From: a plasmid
Sequence record: CP132210.1
Length of the DNA: 64,000 bases
Direction: 5' to 3' (one strand)
Shown in pieces: positions 1,325 through 20,698 of the stretch. The notes below the pieces were generated by a model. The model was given only the letters and a program-made list of their open reading frames with translations, made no database searches and was not told where the DNA came from. Position 1 is the stretch's first letter. Each line of letters opens with the position of its first letter. The position numbers were made by a program, and so were the translations under genes.

Positions 1325-1408
1325 TAGTCACTTCAACTAAATCGACCCGGAGGGGATAGCCATTCCCTCCAGGGGTGGACTATCTCCTTCCCTACCAGGA
1401 GAAAAGAT

Positions 1409-3205
1409 ATGTCCAAAAAACACACCATTTACAGCGCTCTACCAATCGTGGCCGCAGCCTATGGTGAAAAACTCGGTGTCAAAGTCGCCATCGGTAACGA
1501 TGACGCATACACCGATGGCAAGACCATCGTGGTTCCGAATATTCCCGACGACTATCCGCACATGGATGCTGTCTGGGGATATTTGGCCCATGAAGCTGCC
1601 CATGTCCGGTTTACGGACTTTGGTGTTGAACGCCGCAGAGGCCTTCATGCTGAGTTGTCCAACATTTTGGAGGACTGCCGCATAGAACGCGCCATGATGG
1701 AGCTCTTCCCAGGCACTTCACAGACCCTGAATGAAGTCGCTCGCTACATGGCTCAAGCCGGTCATTACGAACACGTCACAGATAAAGAGGCTCCGGCCTC
1801 CATTCTGACTGGGTTCTGCTTGTACTGGCTGCAAACCAAGGCTGTAGGGCAATCCGTCCTTCAACCCTATCTCGATTCGGCTACCTCCGTATTCGAGCGC
1901 GTGTTTCCTCAAGGGGTTGTTGTTCGGCTGAACGCTTTGCTGCGTAAGGCTGTGAACACTAAGTCAACCGCAGAGGTGACATCCTTGGCCGACAAAATCA
2001 TCAAGATGATCGAGGAGGAAAAGGAGAAAGAAGAGCAGAAGCCTAAGAATGGTGAGGATGGTAACAATCAGCAGAATGCTGGTAGCAACCAATCTCAGAA
2101 CAATCAAGGCGGAGGTGGGAACGATCAAAACCAAGGGCAAGGTGCCAATGGTGGTGATCAGCAAGGCAAAGACCAGAAGCAAGACGATGCTGGTGGAAAG
2201 TCTGATCCGAAAGGGCAAGGCGACCAAAGCAAGTCGGATACTGATGGTGGCAGCAAGGCTGGACAAAGCCAGGCTGGTGGCAATTCTGACGCAGCAAAGC
2301 AAGATGCGGCCAAAATGCTCCAGCAGGTTCTGAATGCCGGTGCCGGTGACTTGCGTGGTGACGCGCATGATGCACTTAAAGCTGAGCTCAACCGGGTGGC
2401 TCAAGATAAGGGAGACAGTAGTTATATGACTGTTCGCTCTGCTGTGAACACCCAGGATAACCCTGCTGTTGGCAAAAGCCTCGTAGGTGATGTGAAGAGC
2501 ACCACTTCAAAGATAAGAACGCAGCTTTACGGATTGGTCCAGGCCAGCCAGCGAGTTGCTCACCGCAACCAACGATCAGGAAAGCGTGTGGATGCCCGGA
2601 AGCTACATCGTGTAGTGACAGGTGATACCCGCGTATTCCTCAAGCCGGAAGCCAAGAAACGCCCTAACACGGCGGTTCACATCCTGGTTGATATGAGCTC
2701 CTCGATGGCCTACAAGGCCGCCAATGGAAAGGAGCGTCAAGATATTGCGCGGGAAGCATCCTTAGCTATTTCTATGGCTCTGGAAGCGATCCCCGGCGTA
2801 AATCCGGCAGTCACCTTTTTTGGTGGCAACCGGAACCAGCCAGTGTTCAGTGTCGTGAAGCATGGAGATACGGTTCAGAATCGGGCCGGTCGGTTTGGGT
2901 TCAAAGCAACTGGCGGTACACCTATGGCGGAAGCTATGTGGTATGCAGCCTTTGAACTCACCAAGACCCGTGAAGAGCGGAAAATGTTGATCGTAGTGAC
3001 TGATGGGCAGCCTCAAAGCGCCCCTGCATGTCGCTCTGTGATCGACCTCTGTGAACGAAGCGATGTTGAGGTGATAGGCATAGGGGTAGAGACTACCGCA
3101 GTGTCAGGACTGTTCCAAAAGAACATTGTCATTGACGATGCGGCAGCTCTGCAACGCACACTGTTTAAGCTGATGGAGCGGTCACTGACTGCTTTTGCGG
3201 CCTAG
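1409..3205 (+). CDS. CobT-like von Willebrand factor A (VWA) domain protein with a long Gln/Asn/Gly/Asp/Lys-rich disordered linker
   Basis: AGGAGA RBS. C-terminal VWA signature: VHILVDMSSSM...GGTPMAEAMWYA...LIVVTDGQP. A low-complexity stretch spans about residues 195-300. Confidence 0.75.
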   Translation: MSKKHTIYSALPIVAAAYGEKLGVKVAIGNDDAYTDGKTIVVPNIPDDYPHMDAVWGYLAHEAAHVRFTDFGVERRRGLHAELSNILEDCRIERAMMELFPGTSQTLNEVARYMAQAGHYEHVTDKEAPASILTGFCLYWLQTKAVGQSVLQPYLDSATSVFERVFPQGVVVRLNALLRKAVNTKSTAEVTSLADKIIKMIEEEKEKEEQKPKNGEDGNNQQNAGSNQSQNNQGGGGNDQNQGQGANGGDQQGKDQKQDDAGGKSDPKGQGDQSKSDTDGGSKAGQSQAGGNSDAAKQDAAKMLQQVLNAGAGDLRGDAHDALKAELNRVAQDKGDSSYMTVRSAVNTQDNPAVGKSLVGDVKSTTSKIRTQLYGLVQASQRVAHRNQRSGKRVDARKLHRVVTGDTRVFLKPEAKKRPNTAVHILVDMSSSMAYKAANGKERQDIAREASLAISMALEAIPGVNPAVTFFGGNRNQPVFSVVKHGDTVQNRAGRFGFKATGGTPMAEAMWYAAFELTKTREERKMLIVVTDGQPQSAPACRSVIDLCERSDVEVIGIGVETTAVSGLFQKNIVIDDAAALQRTLFKLMERSLTAFAA

Positions 3206-3319
3206 TGTGTGTAAATAAACGCGGTCGCCCATTTTGGGTGGCCGCCATTTTTTAACCTAGCAGGGGCGTCCTATCTCCTGTTAGGAGGGGGAGCCTCTTT
3301 TGAATAGAGAGCAACTCAA

Positions 3320-3808
3320 ATGTCTGTACTTACTTTTAAAATCCATGATGTGAAAAAGTTGATTGAAGAGCTTGATGCAGCAAGCAGTTTTTCACCATCA
3401 ACGGACGATTTGTTCAATCCTGAAATGTACTCTGACGGCATAGTCAGGGATAAAAATGGAAGGACTGAGCAGGAAGCTGAAAAACATGGCGGGATGTTCT
3501 GGCCTTCAGAAGACTTTATTGACCAGAGCAAAGTTAAACCCGCCTTGATTTTGGTAGGAGATCATGGAGTTTACCTCATCACTAATGCAAAAGCTGATGG
3601 GTCTCCAAGCTCTCGCGGAACAGTCGCTTATGCTAAGGGCTGTAATCCAAGGCTCGATGATGATTTCTACGAAAATAAATGCAACTTGTTTGGTGGTGAT
3701 GATGGTTCGGTTCGCATCCCTTCTGAATGGGCCCGGTGGGCTATCCAGAACCAGAAGGCGTTTCGGATCAAATTGACCACAAACTCGGTTGAGCTGATGC
3801 AGGGGTAA
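3320..3808 (+). CDS. hypothetical protein
   Basis: 162-aa ORF, co-oriented, family A element upstream. Confidence 0.5.
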   Translation: MSVLTFKIHDVKKLIEELDAASSFSPSTDDLFNPEMYSDGIVRDKNGRTEQEAEKHGGMFWPSEDFIDQSKVKPALILVGDHGVYLITNAKADGSPSSRGTVAYAKGCNPRLDDDFYENKCNLFGGDDGSVRIPSEWARWAIQNQKAFRIKLTTNSVELMQG

Positions 3809-4407: not shown

Positions 4408-4467
4408 TTGGCCCATAGGGCGCACTGCGCCTGTTGGGCAACGTGCGTCCTCAAAAAGGAGATACGC

Positions 4468-5007
4468 ATGTCTATCCTTGAAAAGATGAAAGCAGAAATG
4501 CTTAATCTCTCTCAAAAGCTCAAGTTACCGGAGGTTTATGCCGGTGATGTAGAGCAAGATCTAACCCTGATTGAGCAGTTCAGTGGCTATCAAATGTTAT
4601 GGGTGCTCAGAACCTGTGGTTCGGCATTGATACCGTTAAAGGCCGGAGTTCACCCTGTTCATGTTACTCACTGGATCTGGGGTAATTCAGGGCAACAAAT
4701 CTTTGTGTTTCATGTCAATACGCAGCACGGAACCATAGAGAAAGTTGACTTCGAGGAAGCTGAACGTCTCATCATGCAGCAACCTTGCCATTTGAGCTCT
4801 TCAATGAAGCGCGAAGAGATAATCAGCTATGTTGATCGTGTTCTATCTAATGGCTGCAACCTTCGTATATGGGGTGTTTTTGACTCACCGAAACACTCTT
4901 GTTCGGTCGGGGACTGGTCACAATGGCAACAGTATTTCAGATCGTCAGGTAATCACCTGATGGCCGATTTTATTGGTAAAGCCATTCGATTCACGAACCC
5001 TCGATAA
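4468..5007 (+). CDS. hypothetical protein
   Basis: AAGGAG RBS then ATG at 4468. First gene after family B module 1. Confidence 0.55.
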   Translation: MSILEKMKAEMLNLSQKLKLPEVYAGDVEQDLTLIEQFSGYQMLWVLRTCGSALIPLKAGVHPVHVTHWIWGNSGQQIFVFHVNTQHGTIEKVDFEEAERLIMQQPCHLSSSMKREEIISYVDRVLSNGCNLRIWGVFDSPKHSCSVGDWSQWQQYFRSSGNHLMADFIGKAIRFTNPR

Positions 5008-5087
5008 ATCGCCGTTCAACCATTAACCCTTTGGGGCTCCGATAGCCCTGAGGGGCCGGGGCTCCGCAATCGCATTAAGGAGTCCCT

Positions 5088-5588
5088 ATGAAAAACCTAT
5101 CAGCTTTGGAAGCAGTTCTTGACTACGACAAACCTTCTCGGCGTTTTCTTGATGAGCTCAACGAAAACCAGATGAAGGACCTGTCCGGGGAAATCTTCGC
5201 CAAGCTCTACTGGAGCAAGCGGAATCCTCAGTGGTACGAGAAAGACACCAACAGACTGTTTGCACGACTTCGTTGGGTTCGGCGCATCATCAAGAAGCGC
5301 TTGAGTTCCGGCCAGGTTAAACCTGAACTGACTGAAAATGGTTCAGTGATGGATCGCTTCAACTTCCCTTGCGGTGACACTCTCGATTTCTTCCATCGGT
5401 ACTTGCAACATCCCAAATGGGCTGTTGTGTATCAAGAGTCGGGTTGTATTGCCTTTTGGAAAAATGAAGCAACGCTTGAGCTATGCACCTACTGCGAAGG
5501 TGATGTGGTCATGATGAAGGCACCTGATGAAACGGCCTTCTTTCGTGATTGCAATCGCCTGAGCTGGTGGTATGCAGATAACGCTTGA
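5088..5588 (+). CDS. hypothetical protein
   Basis: AAGGAG RBS, 166 aa. Confidence 0.55.
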   Translation: MKNLSALEAVLDYDKPSRRFLDELNENQMKDLSGEIFAKLYWSKRNPQWYEKDTNRLFARLRWVRRIIKKRLSSGQVKPELTENGSVMDRFNFPCGDTLDFFHRYLQHPKWAVVYQESGCIAFWKNEATLELCTYCEGDVVMMKAPDETAFFRDCNRLSWWYADNA

Positions 5589-5661
5589 TCTTAATCCCTA
5601 ACCAGGGGCGAACCAGCCCCTGATGGGAGCATGGTGCGCCCCATCTACGATGGAGGACGCC

Positions 5662-6546
5662 ATGTTCAAATCATCAGTATGCTCCTACGAAAATAGGGGG
5701 CCTTACGGAAACAACAAGTACCGAGGCAATTGCTCTGGCTTCATCATAAAAGACTTTGTTGAGTCCTACATGAGGAGGCCGAATGGGCTGGTGGCAGACC
5801 CCAGTGTTGGGGGCGGCTCAAGCATCGACGTTGCCAATGAACTTGGAATCCGTTTCAAAGGGACAGACTTGCATCAGGGTTTCAATCTGTTGCGGGATGA
5901 CTTCCTTTCGTTCCTCGGAGAGCCTGCACACCTTATCTGGTGGCACCCTCCTTACTGGGACATGATCCAGTATTCAGGTAAACAGTGGGGAGAACCCAAC
6001 AAATGGGACATGAGCCGCATGAGTTTGCCTGAGTTCGTTGAAGCCCTTGAGTTGGCTGTTATGAACATTCATGACGCTTGTGAGCAAGGGGGACATTACG
6101 GAATCCTCATGGGGAACCTGAGGCGCGATGGGGATTACTTCAACCTGTCCAGCCTTGTGGAACGTATCGCACCTGGAAAGCTGGTGGATGAAATCATCAA
6201 AACACAGCACAACTGTGTGAGTGATCGAACTCAGTATTCCGGGAAGCTAGTGCGCATCGCCCATGAGAAGCTGTTGGTGTTTCGTCGTAACGACGTTGCC
6301 TCATCGCTCTGTCTTCTTGCTGCCGTACACCGCCGATCAACCAACATGGTTTCGACTACGTGGAAAGCTGCAATACGCCGAACCCTACAGGGGAAAACGT
6401 TGAAGCTGGAGCAGATTTACAAAGAGATTGAACCCTACGCAAAGCATCGAGAGAACAACCACTGGCAAGCAAAGGTCAGGCAAGTTCTTCAAGATGCCAG
6501 GTTCTTTAGTCGCATCGAGGTAGGTGCCTATGCACTTGCTGAGTAG
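5662..6546 (+). CDS. putative DNA amino-methyltransferase (N6-adenine or N4-cytosine)
   Basis: GGAGG RBS. Motif I-like DPSVGGGSS followed by motif IV-like WHPPYW (DPPY-type). Confidence 0.6.
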   Translation: MFKSSVCSYENRGPYGNNKYRGNCSGFIIKDFVESYMRRPNGLVADPSVGGGSSIDVANELGIRFKGTDLHQGFNLLRDDFLSFLGEPAHLIWWHPPYWDMIQYSGKQWGEPNKWDMSRMSLPEFVEALELAVMNIHDACEQGGHYGILMGNLRRDGDYFNLSSLVERIAPGKLVDEIIKTQHNCVSDRTQYSGKLVRIAHEKLLVFRRNDVASSLCLLAAVHRRSTNMVSTTWKAAIRRTLQGKTLKLEQIYKEIEPYAKHRENNHWQAKVRQVLQDARFFSRIEVGAYALAE

Positions 6547-6611
6547 CCCAACCGGGGCGTGACATCCCGGAGGGGATTGGTCGCGCTCATTAACATCAAA
6601 GGAGCGTGACC

Positions 6612-6836
6612 ATGAACATACAACTTCAAGCCAACAACATTGTTCTGTTGGCGCAAATCGAAAACAAAGGCCTCACTGTTGAAACGCATTGTCGCAGTGG
6701 CTTTTGTGGCATGTGCCGGGTTCGTCTAATCGAAGGTCAGGTGGCCTACGAAGAGACCCCCATCGCACTTGTCAAAGAAGGGGAAGTGTTGGTTTGCTGC
6801 GCTAAAGCAAAAACCGATGTGACCTTGGAAATTTAA
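6612..6836 (+). CDS. YfaE-like 2Fe-2S ferredoxin
   Basis: 74 aa. Cys cluster CRSGFCGMCRV plus a distal Cys pair (VCC). AAGGAG RBS. Confidence 0.6.
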   Translation: MNIQLQANNIVLLAQIENKGLTVETHCRSGFCGMCRVRLIEGQVAYEETPIALVKEGEVLVCCAKAKTDVTLEI

Positions 6837-6897
6837 CCCATCCGGAGGAGCCTTTCCTGCGGGTGGGGCTCCTCTATCCATTACGAGGAGAAACACT

Positions 6898-7287
6898 ATG
6901 TCTATCAAAACCAAAGTCGAACAAATCGCATACGGCCATGCTACTGCTCAAGTGCTCAGTGAAATGGGTCCACAAGAGAATTGGTATAAGGCTTATGAGT
7001 ATTTGTCGGAGTGTGTAGAACTGGGAGACGACCCTGAGGATCTGGTCGTTTGGCAAAAGTTTGAGCACTGGGAATGGAAAGACATTCTGGAGCAAATCGA
7101 GAGCGAAGCTGAGTCTCTGCTTTCGACTATCAAGTTGGTTTTAGGCTTGGCCCACAAAGGCATCATTCAGTCAGCAATTGACTGCTCTCTCGATTCGGAC
7201 ATGACTCAGCTTGACCTGATTGGAATGGTCGAGCTCGGCAGTGAAATCGAAGAAAGGGAGTGTGCTGGAGGTGGCTATGCAGCTTAA
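6898..7287 (+). CDS. hypothetical acidic protein
   Basis: GAGGAG RBS, 129 aa. Confidence 0.5.
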   Translation: MSIKTKVEQIAYGHATAQVLSEMGPQENWYKAYEYLSECVELGDDPEDLVVWQKFEHWEWKDILEQIESEAESLLSTIKLVLGLAHKGIIQSAIDCSLDSDMTQLDLIGMVELGSEIEERECAGGGYAA

Positions 7288-7733: not shown

Positions 7734-8009
7734 ATGGCCGCTGTAGCGCATATAGCAGCAGATAACCTTGTACCGGCATGTGGAGGGGCAGAGAAGCCGT
7801 TTACCGTCAATGACAGGCAATGGCTTTACTGTTATCACCCGGCTAGTGGAAAGCACTGCTACTTAGACCTCGATAACGACCGTCCAGTTTGGCATCGAGG
7901 ATTCCATCCTGCTTTTCATCCTGAGCTTGAGTTCGTTGATGAAGCTGAATTGTTTCGGCCAGTCGAGCAAAAGCCTGACCATGAAGATCTGGAGGATTTT
8001 TATTTTTAA
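7734..8009 (+). CDS. hypothetical protein
   Basis: GAGGA RBS then ATG at 7734. Confidence 0.45.
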   Translation: MAAVAHIAADNLVPACGGAEKPFTVNDRQWLYCYHPASGKHCYLDLDNDRPVWHRGFHPAFHPELEFVDEAELFRPVEQKPDHEDLEDFYF

Positions 8010-13120: not shown

Positions 13121-15574
13121 ATGCAACAAGCATTAAACTTTGACCTACCAGAACAACCAACCCCAGTGCTCTTGCGAGGGGATAAGTGGGACTCTGTTTG
13201 GTCAGAACTGACTGATAACGAGGATTTGAACTTCGTTGATGCCAGTAGAGGAACCAGCTTGTCATCGTTGATCACGTCATCGGTTGAAGCCATTCACACG
13301 GCCTTGAACGATGGGTGGACCATGATGGTCGGCTATTCCAGTGGTAAGGATTCTGAAACGGTTTTGCATCTGTTTCTGATGGCTCTTGTCCGGGCGGTTA
13401 GGAGTGGAGCAACCATCAGCCAACACCACTTCATCTTGCACACTGACACACTGATAGAAAGCCCAGAAGTAAGATGGCTGGCGGATCAGAAACTGGCCGA
13501 GTTGGAGCGTTTCATTGTGAAGGAAAACCTTCCTCTGACCATCGTTCTGGCAAAGCCGGGGATCACGCAGAGTTGGACGGGCCGAATCCTTACGGGGAGG
13601 GGGTTGCCTACATTTTCCAACTCTTCGGCCCGTCAGTGTAGCCAAGAACTCAAAATCACCTCAGCCAAAAGAGCGAAGGCGGCTTATATGCGAGAACTCC
13701 CCAAGGATGTTCGGCAGAAAGTGTGCCTCCTGTTGGGGAGCCGTGATGCTGAAAGCGCTATTCGTGCAGCCAACATTGCAAAGCAGCGAGGAAGCTCAAA
13801 TCGCGTCATTAAGACGAAAGATGGGGGGGAGCTGTATGTGGTGAAAAACTGGTTGGCGAGTGATGTCTGGGAGTTCTTGCTATCTGCTGGCATGGGCTCA
13901 CCATACCCCCTGCCAAGTTACCTAGAGAGCAATGTCACTACGGCAGAGCTCTACAAGGCAGCGACGGGGGAGTGCGTGTGGTCGGCAACAGAGAAAAAGG
14001 CCAGTGATGCGTGTGGTGCTCGCTTCGGTTGCTGGGCCTGCCAAGCTGTAGGGTTGGATAAGTCGATGGAGACATTGCTTGCCACAGACCCTGAAAGGCA
14101 TGGCTACATGTCTGGGCTGAACCGCATCCAGCGCTACCTGGCAAAACGCCGGTACGCTTGGGAAGATCGCCATCCCGTAGGTCGAACGATTTATGAGGGG
14201 GGTTACATCAAAATACAGCCGGACGTTTACAGTCCTGTTTTCCTTGAGCGATTGCTTCATGTCTGTTGCAGCATGGACTACATGGAGCAAAAAAGAGCTG
14301 ATGAGCTTGCTTACAAGCTGGCTACTGGGCAAGCCGAGGATAACGACTGGAACCGTCGAATGGCAGAGCCGCAATTCCGGATCATATCGGAAGAAGCTTT
14401 AGTCCATATCGACTTCATGTGGGCCTTCCATCATTTCAATGATAAGCCTTTCCATGCCCTGGAGATTTACCACAGGGTTTGGTCGATGGGTGATCTGGAT
14501 TTGCTGGAAGATGAGCCGCAGTGCGAAACCGTTCCTCAGTCACCAATTCCGAAACCATTGTGGTTGAGAGTTGGGCGCTGGGGCGATGGTTCGCTGTCTG
14601 ATGGCTTGGCCGACCCGTTAGCGGAAATGGCTTACTTTGACGGCGGGGATGACCCGTTGGCAGTGAAAGTTATCAATACCGCAGATGGAAAGAGAAGGGT
14701 GGTTTGTTTCGCAGAGGATGATGAGGTGAAGGTCGATCCCGACTCCGCTGCATTCATCATCTGGAATGAATACCCGCGACTTAGGGAGTCGGTACTAAAG
14801 GGAAATTATACGCCCGGTAGTGCTGCTCAGTTCTACCTTCGGTTCGGAGCCATCCAGCTTGCGAAAGGAAAAGGCGCTTTGTATCACCGCATGATGCAAA
14901 GAGGTCAAACCTACCACCAGATGGGCCTTACAGGGCTACAGACGATGGAAGGAATCCAACAGCGCAAGGACCTCAAAGTGCTTTGTGATGACAAGTACAA
15001 AGATCTGGTGAAGCGAAAAATCAAGGGAAGACTGGCTACGGTACGCTGGTGGATCAACTTGCACTTAACGTTCAAGTACCACCTGCACCACCGGACTCCG
15101 ACGGGGTTATTCGTCGAGAGGCAACTTGACCAGGAAGCAATGGAAGAGCAGAAACGGCACCAGGAGCGATGGTTTAACTACGTGACTGACGCGATGCTCT
15201 GTTACTCCAGCGCATTCTGTATGAGCGTCATGGAGGGGCGAGAGGGAAGCGGAAACGCCAACATCCGTCGTTACATGGCTGCGACCAGAAGAAAGGCTTA
15301 TACGGCCCTCTGTGAGCTCCTACGCCACACTAACGCCCTCTGGGCGACAGATGTGGCCTTGAGTGCTGTAGGGAAGTATGAGGAGATACAGGCAGCCCTA
15401 ACCGAAGGTTCCGCGCTGGCTACCTACCTCGACTGGATCAACCTACTATCAAAACGTCATCCAGCCTCTTTGAAGCGACATGTCAGAACGATGATCAAAG
15501 TGGTTCAACGACTACATCGCCGCGACGACACAATGTTGCAAAGAGGACAGCAAGGCTTGTCCTTGGCCGCATAA
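13121..15574 (+). CDS. PAPS reductase-family (PP-loop ATP pyrophosphatase fold) protein with large C-terminal extension; DndC/IbrA-like
   Basis: N-terminal PP-loop motif GYSSGKDSETVLHLFL. 817 aa. CAGGAGG RBS. Confidence 0.7.
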   Translation: MQQALNFDLPEQPTPVLLRGDKWDSVWSELTDNEDLNFVDASRGTSLSSLITSSVEAIHTALNDGWTMMVGYSSGKDSETVLHLFLMALVRAVRSGATISQHHFILHTDTLIESPEVRWLADQKLAELERFIVKENLPLTIVLAKPGITQSWTGRILTGRGLPTFSNSSARQCSQELKITSAKRAKAAYMRELPKDVRQKVCLLLGSRDAESAIRAANIAKQRGSSNRVIKTKDGGELYVVKNWLASDVWEFLLSAGMGSPYPLPSYLESNVTTAELYKAATGECVWSATEKKASDACGARFGCWACQAVGLDKSMETLLATDPERHGYMSGLNRIQRYLAKRRYAWEDRHPVGRTIYEGGYIKIQPDVYSPVFLERLLHVCCSMDYMEQKRADELAYKLATGQAEDNDWNRRMAEPQFRIISEEALVHIDFMWAFHHFNDKPFHALEIYHRVWSMGDLDLLEDEPQCETVPQSPIPKPLWLRVGRWGDGSLSDGLADPLAEMAYFDGGDDPLAVKVINTADGKRRVVCFAEDDEVKVDPDSAAFIIWNEYPRLRESVLKGNYTPGSAAQFYLRFGAIQLAKGKGALYHRMMQRGQTYHQMGLTGLQTMEGIQQRKDLKVLCDDKYKDLVKRKIKGRLATVRWWINLHLTFKYHLHHRTPTGLFVERQLDQEAMEEQKRHQERWFNYVTDAMLCYSSAFCMSVMEGREGSGNANIRRYMAATRRKAYTALCELLRHTNALWATDVALSAVGKYEEIQAALTEGSALATYLDWINLLSKRHPASLKRHVRTMIKVVQRLHRRDDTMLQRGQQGLSLAA

Positions 15575-15576
15575 AA

Positions 15577-15718: not shown

Positions 15719-15775
15719 CTAACCCCTCGGGAGGCAACCCTCCTGGGTTCTCTCCCATAACCAAAGGAGAGAAGC

Positions 15776-15979
15776 ATGAGCCTAGACAAGTTAAGTCGGC
15801 TGGTGGACCAACAGCGAAAGACCCAGGATGAAATCAACAACGAAGTCATTCTGGCCGTCAAAGAGGTGTTGTCTACAAATTCCATCAGCTTGGCCCGTGA
15901 GCTTGTTGGGTGTGTCCCGCAAGATCATCCATTCCATCCGTTTTTGCTCGCCATAGCTAAGCAGCTTGACCCGAGATAA
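15776..15979 (+). CDS. hypothetical small protein
   Basis: AAAGGAGAGAAG RBS, 67 aa. First gene after family B module 4. Confidence 0.45.
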   Translation: MSLDKLSRLVDQQRKTQDEINNEVILAVKEVLSTNSISLARELVGCVPQDHPFHPFLLAIAKQLDPR

Positions 15980-15984: not shown

Positions 15985-16029
15985 TAACCCAACCGGGTAC
16001 ACCAAGGCCCGGTCGGGTTTGGTGTACCT
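15985..16029 (+). repeat. family A 5'-UTR element with interleaved inverted repeats (A-B-A'-B')
   Basis: AACCCAACCGGG / TACACCAA / CCCGGTCGGGTT / TTGGTGTA, immediately 5' of the RBS of gene 16051. Confidence 0.6.
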
Positions 16030-16050
16030 CCAGCCAATTTAGGAGGCACT

Positions 16051-16656
16051 ATGTCTGATTCAAATTTCGGCTTTCTAGCTCTGGCCTTGCGCCAACGCCT
16101 GATCAAGCGCTGGTCGCTGATGCACTCTGTTCAACCAGAGTCTGTGTTGGAGCACAGCGCTGTTGTTACCTTGCTTTCCTACCTGGCTGGCAATATCGCC
16201 ATTCAGCAAGGGAAGTCGGTGGATCTGGCAATCATGCTGGCTCATGCGTCGTTGCATGATGCAGCCGAGGTTCTTTGTTCGGATGTTGTCACGCCGGTCA
16301 AGAAAGCAAATGCTGTTTTGCAGCGTGAGTTTGAACGACTGGAAAAGGCCGCAGAGGACAAACTTATCCAGACTCTTCCCGAAGAACTCCAGGATGCAGT
16401 TTCCAGAGCCTTTGCTCCCGGTGGCTATGAACAATCACTGGTTAAGGCCTGTGATACCTACTCCGCTTACATCAAGTGCAAACTTGAGGTGGCCGCAGGT
16501 AATGGCATTGAGTTCCAAGATGCTCTCAGCAAAATGGAACGTATTGTTGCTCAGGTGAAATTGGACTTCCCGGAAATCGACGCTCTGGACAAATGGTTTG
16601 GTGACGGACTGGGCCATTCAGTAGATAAATTGCTGGCCGGGGGTAACGATGACTAA
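16051..16656 (+). CDS. YfbR-like HD-domain 5'-deoxynucleotidase
   Basis: Collinear with E. coli YfbR: RWSLM..ESVLEHSAVV..LAHASLHDAAEVL..GD(V)VTPVK. TTAGGAGG RBS. Confidence 0.7.
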   Translation: MSDSNFGFLALALRQRLIKRWSLMHSVQPESVLEHSAVVTLLSYLAGNIAIQQGKSVDLAIMLAHASLHDAAEVLCSDVVTPVKKANAVLQREFERLEKAAEDKLIQTLPEELQDAVSRAFAPGGYEQSLVKACDTYSAYIKCKLEVAAGNGIEFQDALSKMERIVAQVKLDFPEIDALDKWFGDGLGHSVDKLLAGGNDD

Positions 16657-16921: not shown

Positions 16922-17000
16922 GCCGCAAGGCTTCTTAACCCCACGGGGGACATCTGTCCCTGAGGGGGGGGTGTCTCCCTCTGAAACTAAGGAGATACCA

Positions 17001-17861
17001 ATGATTAAGCAGCATTTTCAAAACGAACTGGTCAAATGCGGATACCCTGATGACCTGACCATTGAGTACCGTCTTGGGTACTGTCAGGGTGATGGAGTGG
17101 CATTCTACGGATGTTTGGGTGTTGATAATGCTCAGGCGTTGATGAAGCGCTTGTTAAGCACCACAAAGGGGCAAGTAGATGCTGTCAGCAGAGTGAAAAA
17201 CCTGATAGCACAAAAAGACATTGACAATATGTTTCTTGTCCTTCGTGAGTATGCTGAGCTCCAGTTCTGCGAACTGGACATCAACAGAAACAGCTACGGC
17301 CATCATTACAGTCACTGGAACACCATGCGTATTGATAGCAACGTAGACTTCACTGGGATCTTTCCTGATGATGACACCATGCTTGGAACAGGCATCGAAG
17401 GGATTGACCAAGCGATGTTAGAGCGTTGGCAAGGCATCTGGGAGCGTTTCGTGTTGGAACTGTCGGGTGATGTTAAACAGCTTTCCAAGAAGCTCGAATC
17501 CGACGGTTATGCGTTGATAGAAGCCTCGCCACACGAAGAGAAAGTGGTTTGGGAACGGACTACTCAAAATTACTTGGTGCGAGTGACAGAACTCCCTGAA
17601 CGGGATTTCGACATGGACCACTGGGATGACGACATCAGAGACCAAACGATTCGTTCTATCCTGGAGGGAAAAGAGCGAGTGCTTGGCCTACGTGTTGAGG
17701 TGCTCTCTCGTGAAAACGAGATTGTTCTGGGTGAAGAGAGTCTGCACGGTTTGACCGTTGCCAGTGATGACAAGAGCTACGCTGGCTACAGACGAGAACT
17801 CCTCCGGGGCGCTATCCAGCAAACCAGAGATTTTTTCTCTCGCCACCTCAAAGCGGCATAA
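17001..17861 (+). CDS. hypothetical protein
   Basis: TAAGGAGATACCAATG, 286 aa. Confidence 0.55.
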   Translation: MIKQHFQNELVKCGYPDDLTIEYRLGYCQGDGVAFYGCLGVDNAQALMKRLLSTTKGQVDAVSRVKNLIAQKDIDNMFLVLREYAELQFCELDINRNSYGHHYSHWNTMRIDSNVDFTGIFPDDDTMLGTGIEGIDQAMLERWQGIWERFVLELSGDVKQLSKKLESDGYALIEASPHEEKVVWERTTQNYLVRVTELPERDFDMDHWDDDIRDQTIRSILEGKERVLGLRVEVLSRENEIVLGEESLHGLTVASDDKSYAGYRRELLRGAIQQTRDFFSRHLKAA

Positions 17862-18000: not shown

Positions 18001-18093
18001 AAATCTCGGCTTTGGCCGTGATCTTTCAATAACCCATGCGGGTACACCTCCCCGCACGGGCTAGGTGTACCCATTAACTTTGGAGTACACCTC

Positions 18094-18480
18094 ATGAACC
18101 AAGTAGCTAAATTGGACCTCGCCCAAATCCGTCAACAAGCCATCAATGATGGACTGCTGGTGGACCAATCCTCCATCGGCACACAAGCTGGTTTCCTGAC
18201 CAATGTGGCAGTGACCCCAGCCATTGTCGATGGAGTATTTGGTGCGGATGGTAAGCACTCGGCAGAAGACTTCCTTCTCATGTTTTTGCAGCTTTGTGTT
18301 GCCCAAACAAAGGTCGCTTTTACCGACAACAAGAACTGGGGAAAGATTCGCCTCTATTACCCCATGCCCACTGTAAATGGCTTTTTCAAACCCACTGAGG
18401 TTGTGATTAAGTCAGACCCTGTAACCGCAGATGTCACAATCATGATGGCCTCAGAAGAGGGCACCCATTTGTGTTTGTGA
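18094..18480 (+). CDS. hypothetical protein
   Basis: TTTGGAG RBS. First gene after family B module 5. Confidence 0.5.
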   Translation: MNQVAKLDLAQIRQQAINDGLLVDQSSIGTQAGFLTNVAVTPAIVDGVFGADGKHSAEDFLLMFLQLCVAQTKVAFTDNKNWGKIRLYYPMPTVNGFFKPTEVVIKSDPVTADVTIMMASEEGTHLCL

Positions 18481-18657
18481 TGTTCACAAAATTCGCCTCC
18501 GTCTCGGGGGCGATCTTTTTAAACCCCTCGCCGGGGAGTTCTCCCCGGCTGGGGAGCCTCCTTGGCACATCCTCCCGGTGTCGGGGTTTCCTTAAAACCC
18601 TGGCGACGGGGGTTTAAGGAAGCCTCGATGCTGGGGTTCACGCTAAGGAGAAAACCT

Positions 18658-20385
18658 ATGTCTTACTACAAAGCTGACACCGTTCGTGAAGCTGCAAACG
18701 GAAACTGGCTATTCATCCTGGCGGCTCTAGCGCCCCATCTTGAACCAGCTCTCCGTAAACCAGGTCGTCATGTTTCTTGCCCTATCCACGGTGGGAAAGA
18801 TGGCTTCCGCCTGTTCAAGGATGCCCACCTGACTGGTGGCGGCGTATGCAATACATGCGGTGCTAATCATGACGGTTTTGAGTTGCTGATGTGGCTCAAT
18901 AATTGGGACTTTAAGCAGTGTCTGAGCGAGGTTGGTGATTATCTGGGAGTTGAGAAAGAGCAACCCCAGTGTCAACAAGCCGCTGCACCGACACGAGCTC
19001 CTGCACAGGCCAAAGCGCCTGTTCAGCAAGGGCCCATGAAGGTGAATAACAAGGTCCTCGATTCCAAGAATCGCAAAAAATCCATTGCCGGTACTCTGAT
19101 TGCCCACGGTAAAGCTCCCTATGAGCATAACGAAGACAATGAGCTCAGCTACTTTGCCTTCATCCGTGACAGGAGCGGTTTGGAACGCACCATTTGGGGC
19201 GTGGATCTTGAAAGAGCCATCGGTGAAAGCGAAGCCAAGTATGGTGATGAGGTCGTCATGACAAACCTCGGGCGCGAGCCTGTAACTGTCGTCGTTGAAG
19301 TTAAGGACGATCAGGGGAATGTTGTGAGAGAACAACCTATGCAAACGCATCGCAACACCTGGCTGGTGGAACGTCGTGGCGCTTCGGTGACGCAGTTCCG
19401 CGCACGCTCAAACGGTGGTGTTGAGTCGGTGAGTCACCATGTTGAGTTGCCCCCTGTGGTCAACCGCACGGTAGAAGCTCCGGCACCGCAAGCACAAGCT
19501 TCGGCCATACAACTGGAAGGGCAAAGCAGCGAAAACAAGCCGAAAGTTGTTCCAATGTTTCGTGAACAACCCAAGCCTTGGTTGCTTGAGCTCCAAGAGG
19601 AAATGGAGAAGAGAATGGAGCGTGAACGCGCTTACAGCGCTCGCCTCCGTGAGAAAATTGAGAAGGTATGGAACGAGTGTTTGCCGTTCTCTAGTCGTGT
19701 GACTGAACCAATGCGTCTGTATTTCAAAAACCGCGAGCTGCTGTTCAACGTTGATGAAGTAGAAAAAACAGACTGTTTGCGGTTCAATCCGGCTATGCCC
19801 TACTACGACGAAGATGGCAATGAAGTTGGGAAATTCCCGGCTATCGTCTGCGCTATCCGAGATGTGGAAGGCAACCTGGTAACGCTCCACCGCACCTATC
19901 TCACCCAAAACGGTAAAAAAGCCAAGGTTGGCAACGCCAAGAAAATGATGCCCATTCCTGACGGCTTGGATGTTAATGGCGCGGCCATCCGCCTCGGTGA
20001 ACCGAGTGAGGGTATCCTGGGTGTTGCAGAAGGGCTGGAAACGGCTCTGTCCGCTTATCGAGTCACTCAAATTCCGGTTTGGTCAACGGTCAATGCGACC
20101 CTGATGGAGTCCTTCGAGGTTCCAGAAGGTGTTCACACAGTATTGATCTGGGCTGACAAAGATAAGTCTGTGACTGGTGAAAAGTCAGCTAACGTGCTGA
20201 AAGCCAAGCTGGAGAAGCGCGGCATTCGTGTTTACGTCCTGCTGCCTAAACTCCCAATCCCACCCAGAGCGAAAGGGATTGACTGGAACGATGTCCTGAT
20301 GAGTCAGGGAAGCCTCGGTTTCCCAAATGCTCGCTACCTGCGCGATTTTATTGCGAGAAGGAGAGCTGAGTATGCCCGTCATTGA
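18658..20385 (+). CDS. DNA primase (P4-alpha-type zinc-ribbon N-terminus plus C-terminal TOPRIM domain)
   Basis: CPIHGGKDGFRLF...CNTCG Zn-ribbon. TOPRIM-like EGILGVAEGLETALS...LIWADKDKS. CTAAGGAGAAAACCTATG. Confidence 0.7.
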   Translation: MSYYKADTVREAANGNWLFILAALAPHLEPALRKPGRHVSCPIHGGKDGFRLFKDAHLTGGGVCNTCGANHDGFELLMWLNNWDFKQCLSEVGDYLGVEKEQPQCQQAAAPTRAPAQAKAPVQQGPMKVNNKVLDSKNRKKSIAGTLIAHGKAPYEHNEDNELSYFAFIRDRSGLERTIWGVDLERAIGESEAKYGDEVVMTNLGREPVTVVVEVKDDQGNVVREQPMQTHRNTWLVERRGASVTQFRARSNGGVESVSHHVELPPVVNRTVEAPAPQAQASAIQLEGQSSENKPKVVPMFREQPKPWLLELQEEMEKRMERERAYSARLREKIEKVWNECLPFSSRVTEPMRLYFKNRELLFNVDEVEKTDCLRFNPAMPYYDEDGNEVGKFPAIVCAIRDVEGNLVTLHRTYLTQNGKKAKVGNAKKMMPIPDGLDVNGAAIRLGEPSEGILGVAEGLETALSAYRVTQIPVWSTVNATLMESFEVPEGVHTVLIWADKDKSVTGEKSANVLKAKLEKRGIRVYVLLPKLPIPPRAKGIDWNDVLMSQGSLGFPNARYLRDFIARRRAEYARH

Positions 20386-20650
20386 TGTCACGAAGGTTGA
20401 TACGACGCCTGGTAACGACGCAGTATGCCCCTTCTCTCCCCCTGAGGGGTGGGGGGGGGACTCTGCGGCCTATGTTGAGCTTATGCGGTCTCGGTATCGC
20501 CATCTGATGCACGGCCAGAGAATGATGGTGACAGCCTCCTTCGCAAGAAGGGAGCCTATCCAAGTTACCGGTCCGTTCGCTGATGAGGCGATGAAGATCA
20601 TTAGCTCAATGAAGATGAACAAGGCGAAGCCTACAGCTTTGTCTGTCTAA
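20372..20650 (+). CDS. hypothetical protein (contains a G9 homopolymer in the coding sequence)
   Basis: AAGGAGAG RBS. Overlaps the primase 3' end. G9 tract at 20451-20459 encodes GWGGD. Confidence 0.45.
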   Translation: MPVIDVTKVDTTPGNDAVCPFSPPEGWGGDSAAYVELMRSRYRHLMHGQRMMVTASFARREPIQVTGPFADEAMKIISSMKMNKAKPTALSV

Positions 20651-20655
20651 AACCT

Positions 20656-20698
20656 TAACCCGGAGGGGGTGTTCATGCCCTCTCGGGCATGATTCGCC
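20656..20698 (+). repeat. family A 5'-UTR element
   Basis: TTAACCCGGAGGGGG followed by the palindrome CATGCCCTCTCGGGCATG at 20674-20691. Confidence 0.55.

What the first reader, a model, noticed from the sequence alone, without database searches (positions are those of the whole stretch)
1344..20698. Family A: about 20 copies of a TAACCC-N(3-6)-GGGG hairpin-containing element immediately upstream of the RBS of successive genes
Elements occur at about 1344-1378, 3253-3292, 5025-5068, 5592-5627, 6544-6580, 6834-6873, 8007-8046, 8267-8310, 8808-8848, 9227-9273, 9604-9650, 11298-11335, 11802-11839, 12585-12626, 13062-13103, 15715-15751, 15985-16029, 16936-16979, 18521-18561 and 20656-20698. A truncated copy lies at 1-46. 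Each begins with (T)TAACCC, often re-using the TAA stop codon of the upstream gene. Each then has GGGG followed by one or two GC-rich inverted repeats and ends 5-15 nt before the Shine-Dalgarno. Examples are CCGGGGCAA...TTGCCCCGG, GCAATGTAAGCC...GGCTTACATTGC and CATGCCC-TCTC-GGGCATG. A conserved position plus a conserved 5' motif with variable stems suggests a structured RNA or ssDNA element. It could be a site for a sequence-plus-structure-specific binding protein, an RNase processing or stabiliser hairpin, a translational coupling or attenuation device, or an ssDNA promoter-like hairpin.
Basis: seen in the sequence. Interest (0 to 1): 0.75.

Follow-up and report, generated by a model that had tools for sequence, protein, structure and literature searches.

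The report
Repeated RNA switches gating plasmid genes
About 22 genes in one block of this IncA resistance plasmid are each preceded by a 60-70-base RNA module whose predicted fold hides the ribosome-binding site; relatives occur across the SXT/R391-IncA/C group of resistance vectors, where only one copy has been tested.

Summary
The window is a pRA1-like IncA plasmid. All 20 listed sites hold a structured element, as do a truncated copy at 1-50 and two unlisted copies at 4409 and 18030. All lie on the gene-sense strand.

The element is longer than described. Hairpin HP1 has a CCC...GGG clamp. Hairpin HP2 pairs an anti-SD strand with the Shine-Dalgarno sequence and start codon. The HP1 5' arm and loop copy the ribosome-binding site, so they can pair with the anti-SD strand instead and free the real site.

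All three helices are specific to their own copy and covary. The predicted chance that the SD is open is about 100 times lower than for other plasmid genes. The copies are confined to one 26-kb block running from the hde/bet-exo genes to the primase gene. Similar modules occur in IncC, pAQU1-like plasmids, SXT/R391 ICEs and more distant elements.

The copy upstream of bet in SXT is cited as a "strong translational attenuator" (Garriss 2013, via PMC4542580).

Best reading: a dispersed family of two-state translational attenuators. Predicted barriers suggest the state is fixed during transcription. The trigger is unknown. Simple occlusion by a terminating ribosome, a thermometer, ssDNA promoters and REP-like elements fit poorly.

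Verdict: new variant of a known kind.

The parts
1..50 (+). 3' part of a module cut by the window edge (B, anti-SD strand, SD, ATG at 48) upstream of the DUF3150 gene
   Evidence: Almost identical to 9245-9294. The full copy is seen in pRA1 at 79089-79150.
1343..1411 (+). Module upstream of the VWA gene. HP1 1343-1378, HP2 1383-1402, SD 1397, ATG 1409. Alternative hairpin 1351-1388.
   Evidence: (z -2.1). CM hit E=0.015. The orthologous site carries a module in pAQU-like, SXT, Azomonas, P. duriflava and Mycoavidus loci.
3253..3322 (+). Module (CCU variant) upstream of the DUF3085 gene, following a terminator-like hairpin at 3221-3245. HP1 3256-3285, HP2 3288-3317.
   Evidence: (z -2.8).
4409..4470 (+). 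HP1 4411-4439, HP2 4442-4470 (SD 4457, ATG 4468). Lies in the long leader after an AcaCD-like box at 4222.
   Evidence: (z -5.3).
5024..5090 (+). Module. HP1 5027-5055, HP2 5058-5086, SD 5078, ATG 5088.
   Evidence: E=3.6e-7; z -3.5.
5593..5664 (+). Module. HP1 5595-5628, HP2 5630-5664, which includes the ATG at 5662.
   Evidence: (z -4.4).
6544..6614 (+). Module whose abutting TAG (6544-6546) is the true stop of the upstream gene. HP1 6547-6575, HP2 6578-6612.
   Evidence: E=5.6e-5; z -5.5.
6834..6900 (+). Module whose abutting TAA is the true stop of yfaE. HP1 6837-6867, HP2 6869-6890.
   Evidence: (z -4.7).
8007..8068 (+). Module whose abutting TAA is a true stop. The predicted minimum-energy fold is the alternative (state 2) hairpin at 8015-8045.
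   Evidence: (z -2.7).
8267..8327 (+). Module. HP1 8270-8299, HP2 8301-8327 including the ATG at 8325.
   Evidence: E=3.3e-5; z -3.7.
8808..8873 (+). Module in a leader region after the TAGCTGG...AAACAG repeat. HP1 8811-8835, HP2 8839-8866.
   Evidence: (z -3.6). The IncC orthologue keeps both folds despite indels.
9226..9294 (+). Module. HP1 9229-9257, HP2 9259-9294. Direct repeat of the copy at 1-50.
   Evidence: (z -5.6).
9605..9674 (+). Module upstream of the cytosine methyltransferase gene. The predicted minimum-energy fold is state-2-like (9617-9647).
   Evidence: z -3.3; E=0.007.
11298..11360 (+). Divergent copy (TAACAC...). A long hairpin whose outer stem pairs the 5' end with the GGGGAG SD region.
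   Evidence: (z -3.6). Not detected by the CM.
11803..11864 (+). Divergent copy (TAACGG...). Hairpin 11807-11841 plus a small SD hairpin at 11842-11856. Its SD is predicted to be mostly open.
   Evidence: (z -4.9).
12587..12651 (+). Module in a leader region. HP1 12590-12616, HP2 12618-12643.
   Evidence: E=0.017; z -5.3.
13062..13123 (+). Module upstream of the 817-aa PAPS-reductase-like gene. HP1 13065-13091, HP2 13094-13119.
   Evidence: E=1.5e-5; z -3.3.
15720..15778 (+). Module in the leader after the AcaCD-like box at 15606. HP1 15726-15747, HP2 15748-15773.
   Evidence: (z -3.2).
15985..16053 (+). Module upstream of yfbR. HP1 15986-16019, HP2 16020-16051.
   Evidence: E=0.0014; z -3.6.
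16936..17003 (+). Module. HP1 16939-16968 (contains a G8 run), HP2 16970-16999.
   Evidence: E=1.2e-7; best window hit; z -3.3.
18030..18096 (+). HP1 18033-18060, HP2 18063-18092. The RBS mimic GGGUACACCUC closely matches the real RBS GGAGUACACCUC.
   Evidence: E=0.0013; z -5.1.
18521..18662 (+). Composite leader of the toprim/primase gene. HP1-like hairpin 18524-18554, then a 93-nt hairpin 18558-18650 that reaches the SD at 18646. ATG at 18660.
20656..20725 (+). Last module of the block. HP1 20659-20687, HP2 20688-20725 including the ATG at 20723.
   Evidence: (E=2.8e-4).

Best explanation
Each element is a cis-acting mRNA module of about 60-70 nt that controls translation initiation of the gene after it.

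Anatomy, 5' to 3':
- An A/U-rich flank, usually UAA or UAG in IncA/C and pAQU-like elements.
- A5' (CCCnnn).
- A3' (GGGG plus loop). This is a near copy of the gene's own SD plus spacer, so I call it an RBS mimic.
- B (CCCn'n'n'GGG).
- C, an anti-SD strand ending in CCCC or CUCC.
- D (SD, spacer, AUG).

State 1 is HP1 (A:B) plus HP2 (C:D). The SD and start codon are paired, so translation is attenuated. This is the predicted equilibrium fold.

State 2 pairs A3' with C in one long hairpin. B folds on itself as a cap. The 5' CCC strand and the real SD and AUG are left free.

Shown by computation:
- All three helices exist, are specific to their own copy and covary.
- The SD is predicted to be about 100 times less accessible than in other genes of the plasmid.
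- The predicted barriers between the states are high.

Taken from the literature: the copy upstream of bet in SXT acts as a strong translational attenuator.

Inferred: the choice of state is made during transcription. If HP1 closes when B emerges, the mRNA stays off. If the 5' CCC strand is masked at that moment, C captures the RBS mimic and the mRNA stays on. The masking agent could be a closely following ribosome in copies with an abutting stop codon, or a host or element factor. The trigger is not identified.

Net effect: the ~26-kb establishment and defence-evasion block can be transcribed strongly while protein output from each cistron is held low or gated.
For: - Fold. The two-hairpin fold with paired SD and AUG recurs in 20 of 20 window modules, z -2.1 to -5.6, and in 23 modules of a pAQU-like plasmid.
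- SD occlusion. Median P(SD core unpaired) is 3.8e-4 for 27 module genes and 0.045 for 73 other pRA1 genes, Mann-Whitney p=1e-6.
- Copy specificity. In chimeras, HP1, A3':C and C:D are each far more stable with the cognate partner: -18.3 vs -11.7, -23.8 vs -18.0 and -12.5 vs -7.4 kcal/mol. The median cognate rank is 2 of 33.
- HP1 covariation. The score is 0.384 against 0.127 in shuffles (0 of 500 reach it) and at most 0.067 when partners are slid. There are 3 invariant C-G pairs at the base and 3 near-invariant G-C pairs at the top.
- Orthologues. IncA versus IncC substitutions preserve both states better than random mutations: z -1.15 (p=3e-5) and z -0.93 (p=1e-4).
- Strand. The sense strand folds better than the antisense in 33 of 43 (p=2e-4), with 85 G-U pairs against 44. 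Scanner hits number 5-25 per locus on the gene strand and 0-1 on the other.
- Energies. State 2 exists in almost all copies: mean -23.2 against -30.1 kcal/mol for state 1. For the nascent RNA ending at C, the minimum-energy fold is state-2-like in 35 of 43.
- Barriers. Direct-path barriers are about 15-22 kcal/mol.
[quoted passage not shown] The bet-upstream spacer of an SXT-like ICE, of IncA and of IncC each folds as this module.
Against: - All structures and energies are predictions. No probing or reporter data were available for this plasmid.
- I could not read Garriss 2013 itself. The link rests on one sentence in a review plus position.
- At equilibrium state 2 is about 6-7 kcal/mol less stable, so it may never be populated in vivo.
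- No trigger was found. A plain attenuator would need only C:D.
- The barrier figures are heuristic upper bounds.
- Part of the wider data set was selected with energy thresholds, which favours cognate pairing there.
- All genes in the block point the same way. Gene-sense and DNA-strand effects therefore cannot be fully separated.
Confidence: 0.65

Rival explanations
1. Translational-coupling relay. A ribosome terminating at the UAA or UAG that abuts HP1 covers the 5' CCC strand. HP1 cannot form, the RBS mimic captures the anti-SD strand, and the downstream SD is released. Each gene would then be translated only if the previous one is.
For: - UAA or UAG abuts HP1 in 33 of 44 IncA and pAQU-like copies; UGA is never seen there.
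- The 5' strand left free in state 2 is about 6 nt long.
- Forcing the first 3-6 nt unpaired raises median P(SD open) about 50-fold.
- Genes joined by overlaps or gaps of 14 nt or less (starts at 7277, about 7744, 16649, 20372, 20972) carry no module.
Against: - The abutting triplet is a real stop in only 11 of 33, and no credible upstream small ORFs exist.
- Over 50 modules from 7 elements the stop-to-HP1 distance is 0-3 nt in 11 and mostly 7-30 nt in the rest.
- Copies in 5' leaders with no upstream ORF have the same three-helix design.
- Blocking 9-12 nt, roughly the ribosome's reach beyond a stop codon by my estimate, leaves the SD closed.
- SXT, Pseudomonas and Azomonas copies mostly lack the UAA.
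Confidence: 0.2
2. Static attenuator plus stabiliser or insulator. HP2 simply lowers initiation. HP1 is a GC-clamped hairpin that protects the mRNA or insulates the RBS from upstream context. The A3':C complementarity is never used.
For: - State 1 is the predicted ground state in most copies.
- The literature describes the bet copy only as an attenuator.
- P(SD open) spans 1e-8 to about 0.3 among pRA1 copies, which would suit gene-specific set points.
Against: - A3':C pairing is copy-specific and involves the HP1 loop, which has no partner in state 1.
- It is preserved between IncA and IncC.
- The invariant orientation of the C and G runs in HP1 is explained by the need for B to self-cap in state 2 and for A3' to mimic an SD. 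A mere hairpin would not require it.
Confidence: 0.2
3. A switch operated by a factor. A host or element-encoded RNA-binding protein, helicase or small RNA recognises the conserved (U)UAACCC strand or the clamped HP1 and flips all modules together, for example after entry into a recipient.
For: - Sequence is invariant beyond what pairing needs: CCC/GGG at the base, GGG/CCC at the top, and U-A-R at positions -3 to -1 in 34, 42 and 43 of 44 copies.
- High barriers imply an active or co-transcriptional agent.
- The copies are confined to one co-regulated block.
Against: - No RNA-binding domain was found in 20 small ORFs of the block.
- The UAA is not conserved in SXT and more distant copies.
- No candidate small RNA was seen.
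Confidence: 0.15
4. A DNA-level element. Options are short direct repeats that serve Bet/Exo single-strand annealing or pause Exo, REP-like hairpins spread by an HUH enzyme, or ssDNA promoter or primosome sites on the transferred strand.
For: - Roy et al. 2020 (PMC7498323) showed that Bet/Exo repairs breaks in IncC by recombining intergenic repeats rptI-IV that contain palindromes.
- The IncC exo-DUF3150 spacer has repeats at offsets that match their rptI deletions after subtracting about 5.4 kb.
- Copies at 1-50 and 9245-9294 are near identical.
Against: - Most copies share only CCC and GGG runs, not the sequence identity that annealing needs.
- The element is built around each gene's own SD, spacer and AUG.
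- G-U pairs favour the sense strand.
- The helices of 10-13 bp cannot hold -35 and -10 boxes.
- The block is at least 44 kb from oriT.
- Nothing in the annotation tables I read points to an HUH or RAYT-type enzyme.
- Serving as annealing substrates is best seen as a side effect.
Confidence: 0.07
5. RNA thermometer. The SD hairpin melts at host temperature.
For: The SD is sequestered in a hairpin. The elements move between aquatic and enteric hosts.
Against: Predicted median P(SD open) rises smoothly from 1e-6 at 15 C to only 1.4e-3 at 42 C and 7e-3 at 50 C. HP2 plus HP1 is far more stable than known thermometers (my own knowledge).
Confidence: 0.03

Closest known systems
[quoted passage not shown]
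   Same: Same element family and same genomic position. The ssb-bet spacer of an SXT-like ICE and the bet-upstream spacers of IncA and IncC each fold as HP1 plus HP2 with GGAG and AUG paired. Reported to hinder bet and exo expression strongly despite high transcription.
   Different: In the accessible literature it is described as one attenuator in front of one gene. I found no mention of a family of more than 20 copies, of the RBS mimic, or of the alternative fold. I could not read the original paper.
ColIb-P9 repZ and IncB repA control (leader peptide repY/repB, RBS-sequestering structure III, activating pseudoknot with the loop of stem-loop I); from my own knowledge
   Same: The RBS is buried in a hairpin. 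An upstream hairpin loop pairs with the sequence next to the RBS to give the active form. The active form depends on remodelling from the 5' side.
   Different: That system is single-copy, controlled by antisense RNA, and its trigger is known (leader-peptide translation ending inside the inhibitory structure). There is no sequence relation. Here the partner of the loop is the anti-SD strand itself, and a classical pseudoknot is sterically unlikely because the linker is only 0-4 nt.
Kinetically controlled RBS access: MS2 maturation gene (delayed folding) and hok-type mRNAs with metastable folds; my own knowledge (a related type I toxin paper, PMC5416894, surfaced but was not read)
   Same: The equilibrium fold hides the SD. 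Competence for translation depends on which fold forms during or just after synthesis.
   Different: Those are single genes that use long-range pairing or 3' processing. Here the unit is compact, self-contained, and repeated before many cistrons.
Translational coupling by RNA unfolding, e.g. rpmI-rplT with +52 nt spacing (review PMC12548453)
   Same: Spacers of 55-85 nt with the downstream RBS in secondary structure, inside polycistronic operons.
   Different: In rpmI-rplT, by my recollection, the inhibitory partner lies inside the translated upstream gene. Here all partners lie in the untranslated spacer, and most upstream stop codons are out of ribosome reach.
rptI-IV intergenic repeats of IncC plasmids (Roy et al. 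2020, PMC7498323)
   Same: Same intergenic spacers of the same block. The repeats are noted to contain palindromes.
   Different: They are treated there as DNA substrates for Bet/Exo annealing. No RNA structure or translational role is proposed in the text I could read.
REP/BIME elements of enterobacterial chromosomes; my own knowledge
   Same: Dispersed GC-rich imperfect palindromes in intergenic regions of operons.
   Different: REPs sit downstream of genes, occur in both orientations and in clusters, and do not include the RBS. Here there is one orientation, one copy per gene, and the RBS is part of the element.
Synthetic toehold switches and bicistronic RBS designs; my own knowledge
   Same: The RBS is hidden in a hairpin and released by strand exchange with a competing complementary strand. 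Portable, self-contained RBS cassettes.
   Different: These are engineered and triggered by a trans RNA or by a leader ORF. In the natural module the competing strand is carried in cis, inside a second hairpin.

Membership tests
SXT/R391 bet translational attenuator | Lies in the spacer directly upstream of bet in the SetCD/AcaCD-activated operon | tested here: met
   A module is present upstream of bet in SXT-like L012 (4246-4313), IncA pRA1 (76,804-76,885) and IncC L002 (4345-4430). The window copies are paralogues of it in the same block.
SXT/R391 bet translational attenuator | RNA structure that sequesters the Shine-Dalgarno sequence | tested here: met
   GGAG and AUG are paired in the predicted fold. 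Median P(SD open) is 3.8e-4 against 0.045 in control genes. This is prediction only.
SXT/R391 bet translational attenuator | Lowers translation of the downstream gene in vivo | not testable with these tools
   Reported for SXT bet only (review sentence). The original paper is not held.
Any Rfam family | Match to a curated covariance model | tested here: not met
   No relevant match at E<=1 over 1-30,000, and none at E<=10 over 3200-3330 with lax filters.
Ribosome-mediated translational coupling (RNA unfolding) | The upstream ribosome reaches the inhibitory structure, either through a stop codon within about 10 nt or because a partner strand lies inside the upstream ORF | tested here: inconclusive
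   Met for about 11-18 of 50 modules (distance 0-9 nt) and not for the rest. Leader copies have no upstream ORF. Blocking 9-12 nt does not open the SD in the model.
RNA thermometer (ROSE/fourU type) | The SD hairpin melts in the physiological temperature range | tested here: not met
   Median predicted P(SD open) is 4e-4 at 37 C and 1.4e-3 at 42 C.
Intrinsic terminator or transcription attenuator | GC-rich hairpin followed by a U tract | tested here: not met
   HP1 and HP2 are not followed by T runs. The terminator-like sites with long, GC-rich stems and a clear T run are separate hairpins at 3221, 3833 and 18493. Three weak terminator-like matches do overlap modules (3274-3291/3292 and 18573-18586).
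Single-strand DNA promoters or initiation sites of plasmid leading regions (Frpo/ssi) | A long hairpin that mimics a -35/-10 promoter, located next to oriT on the transferred strand | tested here: not met
   Helices are 10-13 bp. No sigma-70-like site on the + strand in 1-20 kb. The block lies at pRA1 73.7-99.8 kb, and oriT is next to mobI at about 0.1 kb.
REP/BIME-like dispersed palindromes | Both orientations, downstream of genes, independent of the RBS | tested here: not met
   5-25 copies per locus on the gene strand against 0-1 on the other. Each copy ends at a start codon.
rptI-type annealing repeats (Roy 2020) | Stretches of sequence identity between copies that are used for Bet/Exo recombination | tested here: inconclusive
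   Some copies qualify: 1-50 against 9245-9294, and the IncC repeats at offsets that fit the reported deletions. Most modules share only the C and G runs.

The most novel reading that the evidence does not exclude
The modules are kinetically locked two-state riboregulators that work as a natural in-cis strand-exchange relay (RBS mimic, anti-SD strand, RBS). Their state would be set while the RNA is being made, by the lead ribosome or by a still unknown host or element factor that masks the 5' CCC strand. The whole block of about 25 genes for defence evasion, recombination, methylation and priming would then be translated only in a defined window, such as the burst after entry into a new host. 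The same device is shared across the SXT/R391, IncA/C and pAQU1 group and more distant elements.
Probability: 0.3. Interest if true: 0.8.

Novelty: new variant of a known kind. Interest (0 to 1): 0.6.

Why it matters
[quoted passage not shown] The block that carries these modules includes the hde operon (anti-restriction genes, ssb, bet, exo), which lets IncC plasmids survive restriction and CRISPR attack on entry (PMC7498323).

If nearly every cistron of this block is gated at the level of translation, then RNA-seq overstates how much these genes are expressed. The true control point of establishment functions would be an RNA fold, which could be probed or targeted.

For RNA biology this would be a rare case of a compact, portable RBS-gating cassette copied more than 20 times in one replicon. 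The three mutually exclusive helices covary across many paralogues, which makes a ready-made natural data set for studying co-transcriptional folding decisions.

In practice the modules also mark true start codons. They explain the unusually regular 55-85-nt spacers. They account for at least some of the intergenic repeats used in Bet/Exo-mediated deletions.

Tried and rejected
- The literal motif TAACCC-N3-6-GGGG is too strict. It finds 5 true copies and 2 hipBA operator repeats.
- MAFFT on unequal HP1 segments misaligned the 3' arms. I replaced it with 14 equal-length seeds and a covariance model.
- My energy-threshold scanner is specific in the ~50% GC backbone but gives false hits on both strands in the 60-65% GC resistance region. 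I used stricter cut-offs and only backbone-type loci afterwards.
- Thermometer idea: rejected.
- Small upstream ORFs ending at the abutting UAA: none credible.
- Gene-proximal promoters that would start transcripts inside HP1: no sigma-70-like site on the + strand.
- A tandem in-frame back-up stop: by my reading of the sequence (distances), the abutting triplet is out of frame with the true stop in 5 of 6 window copies. The one in-frame case has another in-frame stop in between.
- An RNA-binding protein encoded in the block: no Pfam signal in 20 ORFs.
- A classical H-type pseudoknot (HP1 loop with C while HP1 stays closed): judged sterically unlikely because the linker is 0-4 nt across a 10-bp stem. 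This is an inference and was not computed.
- In the IncA-IncC comparison, one apparent pair with 20 substitutions (8811) was an indel artefact and was excluded.
- Garriss 2013 and the supplementary repeat tables of Roy 2020 could not be obtained.
- Rfam: nothing.

Full report
**What the window is**

Bases 1-20,000 are 99-100% identical to pRA1-like IncA plasmids and about 94% identical to several hundred IncC plasmids. Window 1-21.1 kb corresponds to pRA1 79.1-100.2 kb. This is a run of co-oriented genes downstream of bet and exo: DUF3150, VWA, DUF3085, a methylase, yfaE, a cytosine methyltransferase, an 817-aa PAPS-reductase-like protein, yfbR, a toprim primase and many small ORFs. The rest of the window holds hipBA and a GC-rich resistance region.

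**Check of the observation**

All 20 listed sites, and the truncated copy at 1-50, hold a structured element that ends at an annotated start codon.
- The literal motif matches only 5 of them, plus 2 unrelated hipBA operator repeats. The chance expectation is 0.24.
- The other copies are degenerate at the 5' motif.
- Two modules were missed, at 4409-4470 and 18030-18096. The 18521 copy is followed by a 93-nt hairpin.
- All 20 modules tested fold better than dinucleotide shuffles, z -2.1 to -5.6.

**Anatomy**

The element is not a single hairpin placed before the RBS. Reading 5' to 3':
- An A/U-rich flank almost free of G. In IncA and pAQU-like copies positions -3 to -1 are U, A and A/G in 34, 42 and 43 of 44 copies.
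- A5' = CCCnnn.
- A3' = GGG(G) plus 5-9 loop bases.
- B = CCCn'n'n'GGG.
- A linker of 0-4 nt.
- C, which ends in CCCC or CUCC.
- An A-rich loop.
- D = SD, spacer and AUG.

The predicted ground state (state 1) is HP1 (A:B) plus HP2 (C:D). The SD, and usually the AUG, are paired.

A3' is a near copy of D. Examples are GGGUACACCUC against GGAGUACACCUC at 18030, and GGGGCGUGAC against GGAGCGUGAC at 6544. C can therefore pair with A3' instead.

That gives state 2. It is one long hairpin, capped by B folded on itself, with the 5' CCC strand and the real RBS left free. Mean energies are -30.1 kcal/mol for state 1 and -23.2 kcal/mol for state 2. In several copies (8007, 9605 and some pAQU-like copies) state 2 is the predicted minimum.

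**Is it more than composition?**

- *Chimeras.* I used 33 modules chosen by position, not by energy, and swapped partners between copies. The cognate partner wins for all three helices:
  - HP1: -18.3 against -11.7 kcal/mol.
  - A3':C: -23.8 against -18.0.
  - C:D: -12.5 against -7.4.
  - The median cognate rank is 2 of 33.
- *Covariance model.* A model built on HP1 alone from 14 seeds found 160 matches at E<=1 in 423 kb. By my count about 125 are on the gene strand. Almost all of the other 35 are weaker echoes of the same palindromes.
- *Covariation.* On the 116 distinct sequences, 89.9% of cells pair, against 74.4% in shuffles. The covariation score is 0.384 against 0.127 (0 of 500 shuffles reach it) and at most 0.067 when partners are slid. 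There are 3 invariant C-G pairs at the base, 4 strongly covarying middle pairs, and 3 near-invariant G-C pairs at the top.
- *Strand.* The sense strand folds better than the antisense in 33 of 43 (p=2e-4) and has twice as many G-U pairs.
- *Orthologues.* Between IncA and IncC, 28 substitutions in 12 modules preserve both the ground state and state 2 better than random mutations: z -1.15 (p=3e-5) and z -0.93 (p=1e-4). One pair was dropped as an indel artefact.
- *Wider test.* A test on 78 modules from 7 elements gives p about 1e-14 for each helix. Those modules were picked with energy thresholds, so it is supportive only.

**Distribution**

In the whole of pRA1, 23 of 26 strict scanner hits on the + strand lie between 73.7 and 99.8 kb. 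Each is about 30-35 nt before an annotated start. The - strand has 2 hits, both in the resistance region. The CM finds nothing in pRA1 1-50 kb, which holds rep, par, a second block of unknown genes and traI/traD. In 100-144 kb it finds only the hipBA operator.

In the window block, genes joined by overlaps or gaps of 14 nt or less have no module. Most spacers over 55 nt have one. The exception is the 65-nt spacer before the gene at 3874, which holds a terminator-like hairpin instead.

A search with the VWA protein found 46 loci. Modules are present in:
- IncC.
- pAQU1-like Vibrio plasmids, about 25 per 28 kb.
- SXT/R391 ICEs in many genera, about 6 per 21 kb.
- Elements in Azomonas, Paraglaciecola, Pseudomonas duriflava and the betaproteobacterium Mycoavidus.

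They are absent from two Thorsellia loci. At the orthologous DUF3150-VWA junction the stems differ completely between lineages, while the architecture is kept.

**Function**

The predicted probability that the four SD core bases are all unpaired has a median of 3.8e-4 for 27 module genes of pRA1 and 0.045 for 73 other genes of the same plasmid. 85% of module genes and 30% of the others fall below 0.01 (p=1e-6).

[quoted passage not shown] The bet-upstream spacers of an SXT-like ICE, of pRA1 and of an IncC plasmid each fold as this module with GGAG and AUG paired. So one member of the family has an experimentally assigned role. The window copies are its paralogues.

**What could flip the switch?**

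- *Folding order.* For the nascent RNA that ends after C, the minimum-energy fold is state-2-like in 35 of 43. State 1 becomes the minimum only once D is made.
- *Barriers.* Direct-path barrier estimates, which are upper bounds, are:
  - About 21 kcal/mol for HP1 to state 2.
  - About 15 kcal/mol for state 2 to state 1.
  - About 22 kcal/mol for state 1 to state 2.

  Taken at face value, neither state would interconvert within an mRNA lifetime. The choice would then fall at the moment HP1 can first close.
- *Masking the 5' strand.* Forcing the first 3-6 nt to stay unpaired raises median P(SD open) about 50-fold. Masking 9-12 nt or more closes it again, because the RBS mimic is then masked too.
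- *The abutting stop.* A ribosome at the abutting UAA or UAG is the obvious candidate, but the fit is poor.
  - The triplet is a true stop in only 11 of 33 copies, and no plausible upstream small ORFs exist.
  - The stop-to-HP1 distance is 0-3 nt in 11 of 50 modules and mostly 7-30 nt otherwise.
  - Leader copies behind AcaCD-like boxes have the same design.
  - SXT and more distant copies often lack the UAA.
- *Other candidates.* Temperature does not open the SD in the model. There are no sigma-70-like promoters on the + strand that could start transcripts inside HP1. No RNA-binding domain was detected in 20 small ORFs of the block.

**Mechanism I commit to**

The modules are a family of cis-acting translational attenuators with a built-in anti-sequestor. 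Confidence is 0.65 overall: about 0.8 for attenuation and about 0.5 for real use of the second state.

The invariant orientation of the C and G runs supports a working second state. A3' must be G-rich to mimic an SD and pair with the CCUCC-like end of C. B must be CCC...GGG to cap state 2. A5' must be CCC to close HP1 on B.

The trigger is inferred, not shown. It is probably co-transcriptional masking of the 5' strand by a closely following ribosome in copies with an abutting stop, or by a factor.

Rivals, with their refutation tests given in the rival section:
- Ribosome-driven coupling relay, 0.2.
- Static attenuator with a stabiliser hairpin, 0.2.
- Factor-operated switch, 0.15.
- DNA-level repeat, 0.07.
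- Thermometer, 0.03.

The DNA-level reading has real support as a side effect. Roy et al. showed Bet/Exo repair by annealing of the intergenic repeats rptI-IV. The IncC exo-DUF3150 spacer, which combines a terminator-like hairpin, the TAGCTGG...AAACAG repeat and a module, is repeated at offsets that fit their deletion sizes after subtracting about 5.4 kb.

**Comparison with known systems**

The family works like other RBS-sequestering leaders. It is closest in logic to ColIb-P9 repZ activation, to delayed-folding control in MS2 or hok mRNAs, and to unfolding-type coupling such as rpmI-rplT. It is also close to synthetic toehold switches.

It is not a member of any Rfam family. It fails the defining features of REP elements, intrinsic terminators, ssDNA promoters and thermometers.

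Its only true relative in the literature is the SXT bet attenuator. I found no paper that describes the multi-copy family, the RBS mimic or the alternative fold. Subscription papers, including Garriss 2013, were not readable.

**Caveats**

- Everything structural is prediction with nearest-neighbour energies.
- The barrier figures are heuristic.
- The functional link rests on one sentence in a review plus homology of position and fold.
- All genes in the block share one orientation.

Noticed in passing
window 4363-4400, 8763-8800, 12543-12580, 15683-15715, 17951-17990 (TAGCTGG at 4375, 8775, 12555, 15695, 17963): A second repeat family, GTGCGRTAGCTGGYCGCC-AAAAACAAACAGCAA, lies 20-70 nt upstream of five modules. 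It forms a small hairpin followed by a CA-rich tract, and most copies begin with a three-codon frame GTG-CGR-TAG. It is also present in the pAQU-like plasmid. It lies inside the predicted 5' leaders rather than at a promoter, and probably corresponds to part of rptI of Roy et al. 2020.
   Followed up: partly
window 4222-4250 and 15606-15634: Two near-identical boxes, TTGCACCC(G/C)AAAAGGGCA(G/A)TT..AGCGTT, fit the position of AcaCD-dependent promoters. Table S3 of PMC4207636 places the start site about 36 nt after the box. That puts the transcription starts near 4285 and 15671 and gives leaders of about 105-180 nt that carry a module.
   Followed up: partly
window 26575-26680: Four inverted repeats of the type ATAACC-N8-GGTTAT lie upstream of the HTH/hipA pair and look like HipB operators. 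They produce false matches to the TAACCC...GGGG pattern and to the HP1 covariance model.
   Followed up: partly
window 1-20000, both strands: Sigma-70-like promoter matches are strongly depleted: 3 found against 15.3 +/- 3.8 in shuffles, and none on the gene strand.
   Followed up: no
window 16964-16971, 20451-20459, 22170-22177, 26389-26397: Homopolymer runs of G8, G9, G8 and C9. The first lies inside the 16936 module (3' arm of HP1). The second lies inside the small ORF 20372-20650. Such runs are prone to slippage or sequencing error.
   Followed up: no
window 18558-18650: A 93-nt, nearly perfect hairpin of about 40 bp lies between an HP1-like hairpin and the SD of the toprim/primase gene. 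It is long enough to be an RNase III substrate, unlike the other modules.
   Followed up: no
window 3221-3252, 3833-3864, 15575-15600, 17865-17890, 18493-18521: Terminator-like hairpins (not all followed by a clear T run) sit inside the co-oriented block, several of them just before a module or a leader repeat. Some modules may therefore be read only on read-through or re-initiated transcripts.
   Followed up: partly
window 1-50 and 9245-9294; IncC locus L002 6491-6689 with repeats at offsets -4835, +3832, +8246, +8655, +12028, +18285: Near-identical direct repeats occur among spacers of the block. In IncC the offsets match the Bet/Exo deletion sizes reported by Roy et al. 2020 if about 5.4 kb is added.
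   Followed up: partly
window 37756-38769 and 51385-52398: Two identical 337-aa ORFs on the - strand, with identical surrounding ORF patterns, lie in the GC-rich resistance region. pRA1 carries IS4321/IS5075-type (IS110-like) transposases, but I did not compare them with these ORFs.
   Followed up: no
loci L045 and L047 (Thorsellia): Distant VWA homologues (30-32% identity) sit in AT-rich contexts with plain terminators and no modules at all. These could serve as a natural negative control for factors that co-occur with the modules.
   Followed up: no
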